Below are positions 11,272-58,173 of a stretch of DNA of 64,000 nt, one piece after another. The stretch is from the human T2T-CHM13v2.0 reference genome, Homo sapiens, in assembly GCF_009914755.1 (NCBI RefSeq), contig NC_060929.1; one strand, written 5' to 3'. Both the position numbers and the translations under genes were made by a program. The notes beneath the pieces were generated by a model. That model had not been told where the DNA came from, searched no databases, and saw only the letters and a program-made list of their open reading frames with translations. Numbering within the stretch: the stretch's first letter is position 1; the number at the start of each line of letters is the position of its first letter.

Positions 11272-11593
11272 GCCCACACAGCATGCACACACGTGCATGC
11301 ACACACCCACATGCACACACACACTCATGCACACACACATGCATGCACACGCCCACATGCACACATTCATGCACACACACACATGCATGCACACACATGC
11401 ACACACAGGCATACTTACGTGCATATGCATACATGAAACACGTGCACACATACACCCATGTACACACACATATGCACACATGCATACTCCTGGCACACAC
11501 GTGCACACACACCCATGTACACACACATGCATGCATTCTCCTGGCACACACATACACACTTCCACCCTCACACTAGCTCACGCTCACACACAC
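11272..11593. repeat. Degenerate (CA)n/(CATG)n microsatellite
   Basis: About 320 nt of cacacatgca-type alternating purine-pyrimidine sequence. Confidence 0.92.
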
Positions 11594-27360: not shown

Positions 27361-27769
27361 ATGATCTACAAACGCTCAGACTCTTGGAGATAAAGGGAGC
27401 ATATCAAACTATTTTATAAAATAGGGATTATTTGGGTCAGATAGGATGGACAACCACTGAAGAAGGAATGTTAATAATGAAAAGGTTCAAATATGTTCAA
27501 ACTGCTGTTCAAGAAGGCATGGATATGTAATCCAGTTTATAAAAATTTTCAGCAGAAAATTGTTTAAATTAAGCCACAAGGTTTAAAGGGATAGCAAAGG
27601 GTGTTGTGTTTTTTTTATATAAGGTAATGTTATTTAAAAAAATTTTTTTAAGAAGGCAATGTTAAAAAAGGCACCAGGTTTTGATTCAATGCCCAGATTC
27701 TAGTTCTGGCTTCACTAATATCTCACAGTATAAACTGAAACAAGCTATAGACCCTCACTTTTTATTTAT

Positions 27770-27939: not shown

Positions 27940-30075
27940 GTTGACATGGACCAGATTTACTATCTGACTATTTAAAACAACTAAAAAGCCAAAAAAAAAA
28001 AACTGTATAAAAACAGCAGTTTTCGAGACACCAGACATCAGGCATTAAAGGCCAGTGATCCTTTGGAGACAGGAAACAAAGTGAACCCAAGGACTGCCCT
28101 GGGTTCCTACTCTGGAGAGATTTTCCAGGACACAGTGCAGGTAGAGCCAGCTGAAGGTGAAGAGAGAAAGCTGAGTCCAGGGAGGCCAAAGCAGTTAGAA
28201 TTTACAGAGGAGAGGACAGGAGAGGGAAGAGCTGCACAGAGAATTAGAGATCTGCAGCTGGTCCCCCTGAAGCCTTCACCTGAGGACTCACCAGCATCCA
28301 TGTGTGGGGAAACTACCAGAGGCCAGGACGGAATAACCCAAAAGGATTAGACTCTACAAACCCCACAGCTCACACAAAGCCAGGCATAGTTCTTCCTACC
28401 AACCAGTGTGGAAAATCTGGTAACTCAGAGAACGCTGGGTAGAGTACTCAAAAGGTTTTTGCCTCGGTAGTGGGGAAAATACTAGCCCTAGACTAATTGC
28501 TGCCCTGGTCCTGTCTAACAAAGCTTAAAACCCAAACCTGAAGAGATCAAACTAATTCAAATACTTAATCATGTCCCACAATAAAGCACACAGAATTTTA
28601 CCCAATAAGGTAAAACAAAAGGTAAAATTACCAGGCATGCAAAGCAGCAAGAAAATATGACCCATAATAGAAGAAAATGCAATCAATCAAAACCAACCCA
28701 GAAATAACAGAGATAACAGAATTAGTAGTAAGCAAAGCTATTAAAAGCTGTAACTGTATTCCATATGTTCAAGGAACTAAAGGGAAGATTTAACATGTTA
28801 AGTAGAGGTATGAAAGATATCTTTTAAAAAGACTTAAAATTCTAGAAATTAAAACGATAATGTTTGAGGTGAAAAATACATTGGATCACATTAAAGGCAA
28901 ATTAGACACTTGGGGCAAAAGATCAATGAACTTAAAAATATATCAATATAAGCAAAATGAAACAGTGAGAAAAAGACAAAAAAATGAAGAGCGTCAGTGA
29001 TCTGTGCAATCACTTCAAGTGGCTTAATGTATGTATAACTGGAGTCCCTGGGGAAGAGGGCAGAAAAAAATGTTTGAATAATGGCTGAAAAACTTTTCCA
29101 AATTTGATAAGAACTATAAACCCACACACATATCCAATAATTTCAAGAAACCCATGCACAAGAAACATGAAGACAACTGCACAAGCCACATTATAATCAA
29201 AATGCTTGAAATGAGCAAAAGAAAACAATGTAACCAGAAAAAGAGACACAAATACAGTAACAAGGATAACAGCAGATTTCTTTGTTGGAAACAATGCAAC
29301 CCAGAAGATAGGTAAGCAACATCTTTTGTCAACCTAGAATTTTATACCCAGCAAAATTACCTTTCAAAAAACAAAGGCTAAAGAGAGACTTCTAGACATA
29401 CAAAAGCTGAAAAAATTCATCCACCATCAGACCCACAATTTTAAAAATGTTAATGGAAGTAATTCAGGCAGAAGGAAAACCATGCCAGATGGAAATATGA
29501 ACTTACACAAGGACTGAAGAGCATAGAAAATACTAACTCTGTGGGTAAATATAGGCTTCTTTTCTTATTATTTAAATCTCTTTTAAAGATAATCAATGGT
29601 TTAAAGCTATATATATACACACACACATATACACATGCATATATACATATATACGTATGTATACACATATACGTATATAGATATGTATGTATATATAGTG
29701 GGTTTTTAACATGGACGGTTTTTAACAAGGATGTATACTATAAACTCTAACGCAACTGCTAAACACACACAATAGTTATAGCTAATAAGCCAGCAAAGGA
29801 GATAAAGTGGAGTTACAGAAAAATAATCCAAAATAAGGCAGAGAAAGAGGAAAATAGTAATAAAGAACAAATGGAACAGAAAATATCAAGATGGCAGATC
29901 TAAACCAAACCACATCAACAACTACACTAAATGTAAGTGGTCCAAACATAACTAAAAGGCAAAGATTGTTAGATAGGATAAAAAAGCAATATCCAACTGT
30001 ATACTGCCTATAAGAAACATTTTAAAGACACAAAAAATTAAAAGTACACACATAGAAAAAGGTATTGTGCTAACA
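27940..30075 (+). mobile_element. Old L1M 5'/ORF1 relic
   Basis: A-rich strand with AACTGGAGTCCC, TCAACCTAGAATTTTATACCCAGCAAAATTACCTTTCAAAA and CACTAAATGTAAGTGGTC motifs. Confidence 0.7.
29608..29697. repeat. (TA)n/(CATA)n low-complexity microsatellite
   Basis: tatatatacacacacatatatacacatg... Confidence 0.85.
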
Positions 30076-50921: not shown

Positions 50922-51316
50922 CTAGAGTGAGGAGGGAAAAAGAGGTGTAAGTACCTGAGTACAAACTGTCTAGTTCTTCAAACAATGAATGCTTAAGTGT
51001 GGAATATTTTCAAATGATCTCTAACAAAGCATAACTAAGGTTTCAGCACTCAAATTATTTTAGTTTCAGCTGCTACAAAAACAATTAGATAGAGCTATCT
51101 TTCTTGCTCTAATCTCAAATTCCACTGATTATTTTGGAACTTTAGAATAGAAATATTTAAATTCTACAGAAAAGAAGAAATATAAAAGAACAAACAAACC
51201 CACAAAAAGCAAAATAAAAAAGCAATGAAGAGTTCTTTAGCCCCCCGCTGACAAACTATTCTTAAAAAGATTATTCTTTCTGCAAAGTTTAAAAAGTGTT
51301 GAAAAATATTCTATAC

Positions 51317-51407
51317 ATCTTGCTCTTAGAACGTCTCCACTTTGACAGATCAGGTGACCCTCCTCATCATCCTCTATACTCCTGGATCTTTTCCTTCGGT
51401 GGCTCTT
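51317..51407 (-). CDS. CLK4: CLK4 exon 4 (91 nt), alternatively skipped exon
   Basis: CAG|AAGAGC...AGAT|GTATAG; KSHRRKRSRSIEDDEEGHLICQSGDVLRAR; weak donor; length not divisible by 3. Confidence 0.96.
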
Positions 51408-52528
51408 CTGGAACGGCAAGTGGGCAGCACCAAGATCGTCCAGCCAATCAATATATCAGAGTGAATTCAGGGCAGAATACGCAATTCATTCAGCGGGGAG
51501 ATATTCAGGCATTCAGATAAGCACCAGGCCACGAACAGTTGGCAGGAGCAATTTCAAATTCAGTCCCCAGAAATTCACAGGGCACAGTTTATGTTACAGA
51601 AGAAAAACATGGCAAGGAACAGATTTTCAGATAAGATACTTAAAGTGGCAATAGAAAAAAACAACACAATTGTCTCTTTAAAATACTGATTTAATTGAAG
51701 TCTGAAATTTAAAGAATGCAATGTCATGATTTACTTATCTCTTGCTATAAACAGCATATGCTGTGAATTGAGATGTCTAGTTTTTCAGAAAAATGTTTTA
51801 AAATGTCAAGACTATTTGAAATTATTCTAATTTAGCAATATTTTAAAATATACATGATTAAAATAAAAGGGGAAAATAAAGGCTAGTTAATTTCAATGTT
51901 CAATCTAATAAAAACTAGTTTTACTGAAGAAAACTTGGGGAGAAACTAATTCAAAGTTCACTGTTCAAGCAGGTGAAGATGTCTGAGTGTTAAAAAAAAA
52001 AAGGGGGGGGCAGACTTTTTGGATGTTTCCCATTCAGCACCCATTTTCACAACTTCAAAAGAATTCATTGCAGACAATGATGCACTGGACTATGGAACTA
52101 TGCTCTATGCAGGTTAGTAACATTCAGGTGTCCACCAGTGCAATATTTCACATTTATTTTCAAGTACCAGATAAAGGGTTTCTAAGAAAAAAAAAATGCT
52201 TAAGATGAAAGAAAAGATATGGGTGCATGATTTTTTCATAAGAATATGTTACAAATAAAAAAATAGTTTTATTATTAAAATCAATAAACTCATTATCTGG
52301 TCTGCAGAATATGAGGAAATGTGGGCAAATGAGGGCTAGCTAATAAATATACAGATCAGCTACAAGAATTTGGAGGTTTCCTTTAAGGATTTAAGTAATA
52401 TAAATACAATTATAATATATCCAAATAGTATTTTATATATATATATATAAAAAATTAGAAACTTATCAGCTCGTTAAGAGTACACACAAATAAAACTCCA
52501 CTCAAATTGAAAACAAAACCAATCATAC

Positions 52529-57389: not shown

Positions 57390-58173
57390 CTGTTGATAGA
57401 AATGAAAAGGGAATTGTGGAGGTTACAGATGTGTGATAGGTAAATTATTATATATTAATATTATTTAAGTTATCAAAACCCAACACACAGGGTCTTACAG
57501 GCTCCAAAATCTTTTTAGGTGGTAATGCTTCCCAAGGCACTGGTATGTCAGATGACTGCTAAGAGGCATAGAGATCTAGTATTAAATTGTGGGTAATACT
57601 GATACCTTAAGACATTTTTTTTTTTTGAATTCTGATTACAGCCAGGACAAATTCTCAGCTTGGTGCTTGTCTTCAACTAACACTTGCTAACTGCCTTTTT
57701 AAAAATTAAAAAAAAGCCGGGGGGGCCAAATAAAAAGGTTCAGGCCTAGTGTTTCCAGCAGACAAGAGTATTTAGCTAAAAATTAGTAACGTTTTTATTT
57801 ATCTTATTTTGTTACTTTCTACTTATTAGTGATTTTCCAATTAAGTTATTGACATATTTTCTTTTAAAAATGTTAACATTAAAATGTGAGCTGATTTAAG
57901 GAGAAATAATATCAGTGTCATGCAGCTTTGGCAAAGTACTGTAATACAAATAACTGAAGTGCAAGACAAAAACACTTAGGGATACTAAATATGGGAGGTG
58001 ACTTTGTTTTAATGGTAAAGAGCTATTCAATGATGAAGCTTCTTCTTCTCAAATTCTCCATAGTTCTTTTCTCTAAATCTCAGAATGACTCTAAGCTTTG
58101 AGAATATTAGTTCTGTGTGGATAGAACACAATATTCAACAGAGAAACTGAAGAGATATAAAAAGGTGATTTTA

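What the first reader, a model, noticed from the sequence alone, without database searches (positions are those of the whole stretch)
51410..51638. 229-nt AG-exclusion zone upstream of CLK4 exon 4 suggests a distant branch point
Seen: on the minus strand there is no AG dinucleotide between the exon 4 acceptor (51409-51408) and 51640-51639. The proximal pyrimidine tract is poor (GGUGCUGCCCACUUGCCGUUCCAG). A better tract (UCUGUUCCUUGCCAUGUUUUUCUUCUG, ~51624-51598) lies at the far end of the zone, just after CUUAUCUGAAAA. Established: long AG-exclusion zones mark exons that use distant branch points and carry regulatory elements between branch point and acceptor. Inference: the branch point is ~200 nt upstream, so the complementary box of the previous finding sits inside the AG-scanning path.
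Basis: partly seen in the sequence, partly recalled or inferred. Interest (0 to 1): 0.75.

Follow-up and report, generated by a model that had tools for sequence, protein, structure and literature searches.

The report
Distant branch point before CLK4 exon 4
The long stretch without any AG in front of CLK4's regulated exon 4 is real and marks a splicing branch point about 220 bases upstream of the exon, but the same arrangement was mapped by experiment in the sister genes CLK1 and CLK3 in 2010, so it is correct and already known.

Summary
Observation confirmed. On the minus strand no AG lies between 51640-51639 and the exon 4 acceptor (51409-51408). That is 229 nt, the longest AG-free run in the window, and AG is the only one of 16 dinucleotides missing; 0 of 20,000 shuffles lack AG. 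The other 11 CLK4 acceptors have zones of 19-102 nt.

Interpretation supported. Published lariat catalogues place CLK4 intron 3 branch points only at the far end of the zone: A51632 (-225), A51627 (-220) and U51604-51607 (about -197). None is proximal in the stored parts of those tables. The U-rich tract 51623-51597 follows directly.

All four human CLK paralogs have such a zone before the homologous exon: CLK4 229, CLK1 233, CLK3 205, CLK2 282 nt.

It is not new. Corvelo et al. 2010 mapped CLK1 exon 4 branch points at -229 and -224, in the same 9-mers that CLK4 carries, and CLK3 at -196. Gooding et al. 2006 list CLK2. Ninomiya et al. 2011 showed that the conserved block is the cis-element for CLK-dependent intron retention. 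Only the naming of CLK4 is new.

What the conserved, apparently unstructured 190-nt spacer does is still open.

The parts
51410..51638 (-). AG exclusion zone, 229 nt, between the upstream AG and the exon 4 acceptor
   Evidence: 0 of 20,000 shuffles lack AG; outlier among the 12 CLK4 acceptors
51639..51640 (-). First upstream AG, the 5' boundary of the zone, 7 nt upstream of the main branch adenosine. It is kept at the same place in CLK1.
51632..51632 (-). Main distal branch adenosine in aucuuAucu, -225 from the first exon base. It is homologous to the experimentally mapped CLK1 -229.
   Evidence: Pineda & Bradley BED chr5:178044660, score 20, calibrated; Corvelo 2010 Table 1
51627..51627 (-). 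Second distal branch adenosine in aucugAaaa, -220. It is homologous to CLK1 -224.
   Evidence: Pineda & Bradley chr5:178044655, score 4; Corvelo 2010
51604..51607 (-). Low-evidence branch calls on U residues inside the U run, about -196 to -199
   Evidence: Taggart 2017 Table S1: 2 rows with 1 unique read each and no mismatch; Pineda & Bradley chr5:178044633, score 8 = U51605
51597..51623 (-). Distal pyrimidine tract UCUGUUCCUUGCCAUGUUUUUCUUCUG, directly downstream of the branch adenosines
   Evidence: 22 of 27 pyrimidines, 15 U. The 30 nt after A51632 and A51627 have the highest pyrimidine and U content of all candidate adenosines.
51432..51596 (-). Conserved spacer between the distal tract and the proximal 3' splice site region. 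It holds five of the zone's six CUGAA copies (51563-51559, 51516-51512, 51508-51504, 51493-51489, 51470-51466; the sixth, 51630-51626, contains branch adenosine A51627), the GUGCCCUGUGAA..CUGGGGACUG box (51585-51561) and the GAUUGGCUGGA box (51449-51439).
   Evidence: both boxes are recognisable in CLK3, and the first also in CLK2
51408..51431 (-). Weak proximal pyrimidine tract plus the acceptor AG (51409-51408)
   Evidence: 15 of 24 pyrimidines, 6 U; annotation supplied with the finding
51317..51407 (-). CLK4 exon 4, the regulated 91-nt cassette, purine- and AG-rich
   Evidence: Annotation; translation; 15 AGs; 6 of 91 differences from CLK1
51268..51683 (-). Block about 91% identical to human CLK1: exon 4, about 50 nt of intron 4 and about 275 nt of intron 3
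   Evidence: It corresponds to the conserved cis-region that Ninomiya 2011 described for Clk1/Clk4.

Best explanation
CLK4 exon 4 is a distant-branch-point exon. U2 snRNP pairs with a branch site at the far end of the zone, mainly A51632 in CUUAUC and also A51627 in CUGAAA. U2AF2 most likely binds the U-rich tract that follows immediately (51623-51597). After lariat formation, the first AG downstream of the branch, 220-225 nt away, is used as the acceptor. Any AG arising in between would become a competing acceptor, so AG is kept out by purifying selection.

The roughly 190 nt between the tract and the acceptor are as conserved as the exon itself. They form part of the block that Ninomiya et al. 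showed is sufficient for CLK-activity-dependent retention and release of introns 3 and 4.

Shown: the zone and its statistics; branch positions in lariat catalogues for CLK4; biochemical mapping in CLK1 and CLK3.

Inferred: U2AF2 binding at the distal tract, AG scanning as the reason for the exclusion, and any role of the long branch-to-acceptor distance in slowing or regulating splicing.
For: 1. The zone is real and far beyond chance, and it is unique among the 12 CLK4 acceptors.

2. All five CLK4 intron 3 branch calls found lie at the far end of the zone. Three are in the stored part of the Pineda & Bradley table and two in Taggart Table S1. No row lies at hg19 1780444xx or 1780445xx, which covers the proximal and middle zone. 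The coordinate offset was calibrated on 7 CLK4 branch points: 6 of 7 fall on A with one offset, against 1 or 2 of 7 with the neighbouring offsets.

3. CLK1, which is 12 substitutions plus 4 gap columns away in the zone, was mapped by primer extension at -229 and -224 (Corvelo 2010, Table 1 and Fig. S10 legend). The same -229 adenosine (hg19 chr2:201725162) has score 102 in Pineda & Bradley and is listed as A in Mercer 2015. Neither table has a proximal row.

4. The three lineages CLK1/4, CLK3 and CLK2 all keep a zone of more than 200 nt before the homologous exon. In each, AG is the only missing dinucleotide. Shuffles lacking AG were 0, 0, 1 and 8 of 20,000. CLK3's branch point was mapped at -196, which is 11 nt from the 5' end of its zone.

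5. The branch site plus its downstream UGU(U/C)CC(C)UU(G/C)C motif aligns across all four paralogs.
Against: No CLK4-specific biochemical mapping exists in what I read. The CLK4 lariat evidence is modest: scores of 20, 4 and 8 in a column whose legend I did not read, plus 2 single-unique-read calls on U without mismatches.

Both large tables were cut when stored, so a proximal CLK4 branch point could sit in the unseen rows. The Pineda & Bradley BED gives no 3' splice site, so I assigned its rows to the exon 4 acceptor from their position. Proximal candidates do exist: UUGAU (A51448, -41) and CUGAU (A51456, -49) both match yUnAy fully. Shkreta et al. 2024 found that dCasRx guides on what they call the '3'ss/branchsite region' of CLK1 exon 4 promote skipping, although blocking the acceptor region would do that with any branch point.

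The CLK1 mapping was done in vitro in a heterologous construct. The CLK1-CLK4 comparison alone says nothing about AG avoidance: the probability that none of the 12 substitutions creates an AG is 0.18.
Confidence: 0.9

Rival explanations
1. The zone is a by-product of extreme conservation of an intronic regulatory element. Splicing mainly uses a conventional proximal branch point at -41 or -49, and the distal lariat reads are minor or aberrant events.
For: The zone lies inside a block about 91% identical between CLK1 and CLK4. Full yUnAy matches exist at -41 and -49. The lariat tables I could read are truncated. Guides on the acceptor-proximal region of CLK1 promote skipping.
Against: CLK3 and CLK2 have diverged in sequence yet also keep zones of 205 and 282 nt. 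The -49 CUGAU is lost in CLK1, where it reads CUCGGGU. Primer extension on CLK1 found only -229 and -224. Three lariat catalogues show no proximal branch point for CLK1 or CLK4 in what was searchable. AGs are present in the equally conserved flanks outside the branch-to-acceptor interval.
Confidence: 0.06
2. The AG-free run is a chance or compositional effect with no link to splicing.
For: Gooding et al. 2006 estimate that only one half to one fifth of zones of 100 nt or more reflect distant branch points.
Against: 0 of 20,000 composition-matched shuffles lack AG, with 9.0 expected. AG is the only missing dinucleotide. It is the longest run in the window. The zone ends exactly at an acceptor, recurs in four paralogs, and has mapped branch points at its 5' end.
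Confidence: 0.01
3. The zone is shaped mainly by an RNA structure that brings the distal branch site and tract next to the acceptor. AG absence would be secondary to base-pairing constraints.
For: An inverted repeat pairs UCUUCUG (51603-51597) with CAGAAGA at the acceptor (I1: 22 nt, 73% complementary). Another pairs AUCUGUUCCUU (51624-51614) with exon AAGGAAAAGAU (I4: 11 nt, 91% complementary). The first helix appears in both the MFE and the centroid fold of the zone.
Against: The zone folds less stably than most shuffles: z = +1.18, with 181 of 200 shuffles folding at least as well. With exon 4 added, z = +2.12 and 99 of 100. In the CLK4/CLK1 consensus fold, 0 of 61 predicted pairs show a compensatory change. 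The U-to-C change in CLK1 (UCUCCUG) breaks the 7-bp helix without compensation.
Confidence: 0.03

Closest known systems
CLK1 exon 4 and CLK3 exon 4 distant branch points (Corvelo et al. 2010, PLoS Comput Biol, PMC2991248; read: passages, Table 1, supplement figure legends)
   Same: The exon is homologous, and the zone is of similar length (235 and 207 nt by their count). CLK4 carries both CLK1 branch 9-mers, atcttAtct and atctgAaaa, unchanged. In all of them the branch points sit at the 5' end of the zone and are followed by a pyrimidine tract interrupted by purines.
   Different: CLK4 itself is not named in that paper or its supplement: 0 occurrences. The CLK4 distances are -225 and -220 because the zone is 4 nt shorter. 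The CLK4 evidence comes from RNA-seq lariat reads, not primer extension.
CLK2 exon 4 in the list of zones of 150 nt or more (Gooding et al. 2006, Genome Biol, PMC1431707, supplementary file 2)
   Same: The exon is homologous. The zone is 288 nt in their record and 282 nt in this genome. Their top-scoring predicted branch point (-150) is the sequence that aligns with the mapped CLK3 and CLK1 sites; it is aucugAcgu at -146 here.
   Different: It is a prediction only. The CLK2 zone extends a further 136 nt or so upstream of that site and is C-rich.
PTBP1 exon 11 and MBNL1 exon 5: autoregulated cassette exons with distant branch points
   Same: These too are regulated cassette exons in splicing-regulator genes, with a distant branch point: PTB -351 in a 380-381-nt zone, MBNL1 -141. 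Regulatory sequence lies between branch point and acceptor. In MBNL1 an ultraconserved element spans the exon and flanking intron.
   Different: There the regulator binds its own pre-mRNA directly, through PTB sites or YGCY motifs. CLK4 is a kinase and must act through SR proteins such as SRSF3, SRSF4, SRSF10 and TRA2B. The outcome includes nuclear detention of introns 3 and 4, not only exon skipping.
Clk1/Clk4 intron 3/4 retention element and detained introns (Ninomiya et al. 2011, PMC3187705; Boutz et al. 2015, PMC4281565; passages read)
   Same: [quoted passage not shown] That block is sufficient in a beta-globin minigene for intron retention and TG003-triggered splicing. The homologous introns of all four Clk genes were classed as detained introns.
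   Different: Neither paper connects the element with a distant branch point. In Boutz 2015 the word 'branch' occurs 0 times. In Ninomiya 2011 'branchpoint' occurs only in a reference title.

Membership tests
Distant-branch-point exons with an extended AG exclusion zone (Gooding et al. 2006 class) | AG exclusion zone of at least 100-150 nt ending at the 3' splice site | tested here: met
   229 nt. In Gooding's set, 165 of 67,334 exons had a zone of 150 nt or more.
Distant-branch-point exons with an extended AG exclusion zone (Gooding et al. 2006 class) | [quoted passage not shown] | tested here: met
   Read from published lariat tables and mapped onto the window: A51632, A51627 and U51604-51607. 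The identical CLK1 sites were mapped by primer extension. There is no CLK4-specific biochemical mapping.
Distant-branch-point exons with an extended AG exclusion zone (Gooding et al. 2006 class) | Pyrimidine tract directly downstream of the distant branch point | tested here: met
   51623-51597 has 22 of 27 pyrimidines and 15 U. It gives the best downstream pyrimidine and U content among all candidate adenosines.
Distant-branch-point exons with an extended AG exclusion zone (Gooding et al. 2006 class) | No used, or only weakly used, proximal branch point | tested here: inconclusive
   No proximal row was found for CLK4 or CLK1 in the Taggart, Pineda & Bradley or Mercer tables as far as they could be searched. 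Two of those tables were cut when stored, and yUnAy candidates exist at -41 and -49.
Distant-branch-point exons with an extended AG exclusion zone (Gooding et al. 2006 class) | The zone is conserved in related sequences | tested here: met
   4 of 4 human CLK paralogs: 229, 233, 205 and 282 nt. Orthologs in other vertebrates could not be tested, because no such genomes were on hand.
Distant-branch-point exons with an extended AG exclusion zone (Gooding et al. 2006 class) | An AG introduced into the zone is used as acceptor or disrupts expression | not testable with these tools
   This needs a minigene experiment. It was shown for alpha-tropomyosin exon 3 by Gooding et al..
Distant-branch-point exons with an extended AG exclusion zone (Gooding et al. 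2006 class) | The exon is alternatively spliced or regulated | not testable with these tools
   From the literature only. [quoted passage not shown]
CLK1/CLK4 exon 4 intron-retention cis-element (Ninomiya et al. 2011) | [quoted passage not shown] | tested here: met
   90.8% identity over 423 aligned columns, window 51268-51683. The zone has 12 substitutions plus 4 gap columns in 229 nt; the exon has 6 differences in 91.
CLK1/CLK4 exon 4 intron-retention cis-element (Ninomiya et al. 2011) | Sufficient for CLK-inhibitor-responsive intron retention in a heterologous minigene | not testable with these tools
   Shown for mouse Clk1 only. I could not see Fig. S3, so the exact borders of their element relative to the zone are not known to me.

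The most novel reading that the evidence does not exclude
The distant branch point plus the AG-free, apparently unstructured, conserved spacer may be one ancient module. All four CLK paralogs would have inherited it from before their duplication, and it would be the actual device that makes introns 3 and 4 'detained'.

In this reading a spliceosome assembles on the distal branch site and tract. It cannot complete splicing across about 200 nt of protein-coated spacer until SR proteins are dephosphorylated, so the branch-to-acceptor distance acts as a kinetic gate read by CLK activity. The candidate protein-binding elements are the G-tract box at 51570-51561, the GAUUGG box at 51449-51439, and the CUGAA repeats specific to CLK1/4.

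The papers I read on CLK intron detention do not mention the branch point, and the papers that mapped it do not mention detention.
Probability: 0.3. Interest if true: 0.55.

Novelty: already known. Interest (0 to 1): 0.2.

Why it matters
CLK4 and CLK1 set SR-protein phosphorylation, and they autoregulate through exon 4 skipping and retention of the flanking introns. Knowing that the branch point lies 220-225 nt upstream has practical consequences.

- Any variant that creates an AG anywhere in 51638-51410 is a candidate splice-disrupting mutation.
- Antisense or dCas13 reagents meant to block 'the branch site' must target 51637-51597, not the last 50 nt of the intron.
- The conserved spacer is the obvious place to look for the sensor of CLK activity.

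The architecture itself is already published for the paralogs, so the gain here is confirmation for CLK4 and the family-wide view.

Tried and rejected
1. RNA structure as the reason for the zone: rejected. The zone alone gives z = +1.18 and the zone plus exon 4 gives z = +2.12. In the CLK4/CLK1 consensus fold, 0 of 61 predicted pairs carry compensatory changes. For that call my coordinates covered only the 3' part of the zone (about 150 nt) plus exon 4, not the whole zone.

2. Decoy branch sites in the spacer: not supported. The zone has 5 yUnAy matches against 5.7 expected in shuffles, for both CLK4 and CLK1.

3. Known RNA family: none. The only matches are two sub-threshold snoRNA hits inside exon 4, at 19.3 and 14.8 bits against gathering scores of 42 and 41.

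4. AG avoidance tested on CLK1-CLK4 differences: uninformative, P = 0.18.

5. My first assumption for CLK1 coordinates, that hg19 201724490 was the CUUAUC adenosine, put the other branch points at nonsense positions, and a blind offset scan was ambiguous. The mapping was resolved by exon spacing and then agreed with Mercer's 'A' label and Corvelo's -229.

6. Alternative acceptor at the upstream AG 51640-51639, which has a good pyrimidine tract before it: no evidence. Only one CLK4 transcript is annotated, and I had no RNA-seq data.

8. Searches for a published CLK4 branch point returned no paper whose title, abstract or read passages describe one. The listed reviews were not opened.

Full report
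**Observation.** On the minus strand the sequence has AG at 51640-51639 and not again until the exon 4 acceptor at 51409-51408, which leaves 229 nt without AG. AG is the only one of the 16 dinucleotides that is absent. GA (14), AA (16) and GG (8) are all present, so the zone is not merely purine-poor.

It is the longest AG-free run on either strand of the window. The next longest, 193, 172 and 166 nt, lie elsewhere and were not examined. The zone's own composition predicts 9.0 AGs, and 0 of 20,000 mononucleotide shuffles had none.

As an internal control, the zones before the other 11 CLK4 acceptors are 19-102 nt. AG density flips at the boundaries:
- 15 AGs in the 91-nt exon;
- 3 in the 45 conserved nt just upstream of the zone (counting the boundary AG);
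- 3 in the 49 conserved nt of intron 4.

The proximal one has 15 of 24 pyrimidines (6 U). The distal one, at 51623-51597, has 22 of 27 (15 U).

**Relatives.** A search of the window's own genome found the paralog CLK1 on contig 2. It is 90.8% identical over 423 aligned columns, corresponding to window 51268-51683: exon 4, about 50 nt of intron 4 and about 275 nt of intron 3. Within the zone there are 12 substitutions and 4 gap columns, against 6 differences in the 91-nt exon. The intron is therefore at least as constrained as the coding exon.

A search with the exon 4 peptide found the homologous exons of CLK3 and CLK2 and a processed copy on contig 7. The zones before the homologous exon are:

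| Gene | Zone (nt) | Shuffles lacking AG, of 20,000 |
|---|---|---|
| CLK4 | 229 | 0 |
| CLK1 | 233 | 0 |
| CLK3 | 205 | 1 |
| CLK2 | 282 | 8 |

In each gene AG is the only missing dinucleotide. The CLK3 acceptor was inferred from reading phase and homology, and it agrees with the 207-nt zone that Corvelo et al. give. Because CLK2 and CLK3 have largely diverged from CLK1/4 in this intron, the recurrence argues for selection on AG absence itself and not only on the sequence.

**Where the branch point is.** Three published lariat catalogues were searched through their supplementary tables. I first placed the hg19 coordinates from recalled gene ends, then fixed them on sequence. Taggart's printed motif TGTTT(T*)T fixes one position. 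For the Pineda & Bradley table, one offset puts 6 of 7 CLK4 branch points on adenosines in sensible motifs, against 1 or 2 of 7 for the neighbouring offsets.

- **Pineda & Bradley 2018.** Three rows fall in CLK4 intron 3: A51632 in CUUAUC (score 20), A51627 in CUGAAA (score 4) and U51605 (score 8). No row has a coordinate starting 1780444 or 1780445, which would cover the proximal and middle zone. The BED names no 3' splice site, so I assigned these rows to the exon 4 acceptor from their position.
- **Taggart et al. 2017.** Two 'distal' calls are listed for this acceptor, U51604 and U51607. Each has one unique read and no mismatch, so they are weak.
- **Mercer et al. 2015.** There is nothing for CLK4.

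For CLK1, Pineda & Bradley list hg19 chr2:201725162 (score 102) and 201725167 (score 17), and Mercer lists 201725162 as an A. Neither table has a row in the proximal or middle zone. By exon spacing, 201725162 is the CUUAUC adenosine at -229.

Caveats: the Taggart and Pineda & Bradley tables were cut when stored, one file of each of the Pineda & Bradley and Mercer sets could not be searched, and I did not read the legend of the score column.

**Prior art.** Corvelo et al. [quoted passage not shown] They mapped branch points by in vitro splicing and primer extension:
- CLK1: -224 (atctgAaaa) and -229 (atcttAtct);
- CLK3: -196 (tcttgAcgt).

[quoted passage not shown] CLK4 carries both CLK1 9-mers unchanged, at -225 and -220, and these are exactly the two adenosines in the Pineda & Bradley table.

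Gooding et al. 2006 list 'clk2 kinase' with a zone of 288 nt among their 165 exons with zones of 150 nt or more. The sequence shown is the one before CLK2 exon 4. Their highest-scoring predicted site (-150) aligns with the mapped CLK3 and CLK1 sites; here it is aucugAcgu at -146.

CLK4 is not named in Corvelo's text or supplement, nor in Gooding's list. My searches found no paper describing a CLK4 branch point (listings and selected passages only).

**What the region does.** Ninomiya et al. 2011 report that exon 4 and the proximal parts of the adjacent introns are homologous between Clk1 and Clk4 and conserved between mouse and human. Inserted into a beta-globin intron, this region reproduces intron retention and its release by the CLK inhibitor TG003. 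They also report that intron 3 is removed before intron 4, and they hypothesise that a spliceosome is already assembled on the retained introns.

Boutz et al. 2015 class the homologous introns of all four Clk genes as detained introns. Shkreta et al. [quoted passage not shown]

None of these passages mentions the distant branch point. Closely analogous, well-studied cases are PTBP1 exon 11 and MBNL1 exon 5: autoregulated cassette exons with distant branch points and regulatory sequence between branch point and acceptor.

**The spacer.**
- The four-paralog alignment shows shared islands: the branch site with its downstream UGU(U/C)CC(C)UU(G/C)C motif, a GUGCC..UGAA..CUGGG(G/A) box (51585-51561), and GAUUGG(CU/UC)GGA (51449-51439, shared with CLK3).
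- CUGAA occurs 6 times in CLK4 and in CLK1, against 0.14 expected; 0 of 2,000 shuffles reach 6. It does not occur in the CLK2 or CLK3 zones.
- YGCY is enriched in CLK4 (11 against 4.1 expected; 2 of 2,000 shuffles) and less so in CLK1 (9; 27 of 2,000). It is not enriched in CLK2 or CLK3.
- Branch-like yUnAy motifs are not enriched (5 against 5.7 expected), so a decoy-branch idea has no support.
- The region folds less stably than shuffled versions (z = +1.18 and +2.12). No compensatory pair was seen. The one long-range helix, distal tract against acceptor, is broken in CLK1. No Rfam family matches.

**Verdict.** The novelty is 'already known'. What stays open is whether the long, conserved, apparently unstructured branch-to-acceptor spacer is the mechanism of CLK-dependent intron detention. 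The minigene deletion in the next steps would test that directly.

Noticed in passing
window 57392-57493 (- strand): The second-longest AG exclusion zone among the CLK4 acceptors, 102 nt, lies before exon 2 (acceptor 57391-57390). It is also among the longer AG-free runs of the whole window. No branch-point data were looked up for it.
   Followed up: no
window 51310-51316 (- strand); L004, L005, L006: The 5' splice site after exon 4 is non-consensus, GAU|GUAUAG. The unusual GUA(U/C)A start is kept in all four paralogs: CLK1 GUAUAG, CLK3 GUACAG, CLK2 GUACAA. A weak donor next to the distant-branch acceptor may belong to the same regulatory design.
   Followed up: partly
window 51466-51630 (- strand): There are six copies of CUGAA, mostly CUGAAU, in the zone, against 0.14 expected. 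They are conserved in CLK1 and absent from CLK2 and CLK3. YGCY motifs are also enriched, 11 against 4.1 expected. The binding factor is unknown.
   Followed up: partly
window 51290-51645 (- strand): The zone plus exon 4 is predicted to be unusually unstructured: its MFE is weaker than that of 99 of 100 dinucleotide shuffles, z = +2.12. This could reflect selection for accessibility or merely the segregation of pyrimidine-rich and purine-rich halves.
   Followed up: partly
L007 (G000:C7:23723924-23727010): An intronless copy of the CLK2 exon 4 region lies within a 515-residue open frame on contig 7, presumably a processed CLK2 pseudogene or retrocopy.
   Followed up: no
window 54673 (- strand): The Pineda & Bradley table has a single-score branch call deep in CLK4 intron 2 (hg19 chr5:178047701, GCCUUAU). 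It is far from any annotated acceptor and about 700 nt from the RN7SKP70 pseudogene.
   Followed up: no
window 27507-27699 and 28566-28737 (- strand); 11409-11574 (+ strand): Other long AG-free runs (193, 172 and 166 nt) lie in the intergenic part of the window. They are probably low-complexity or repeat sequence but were not inspected.
   Followed up: no
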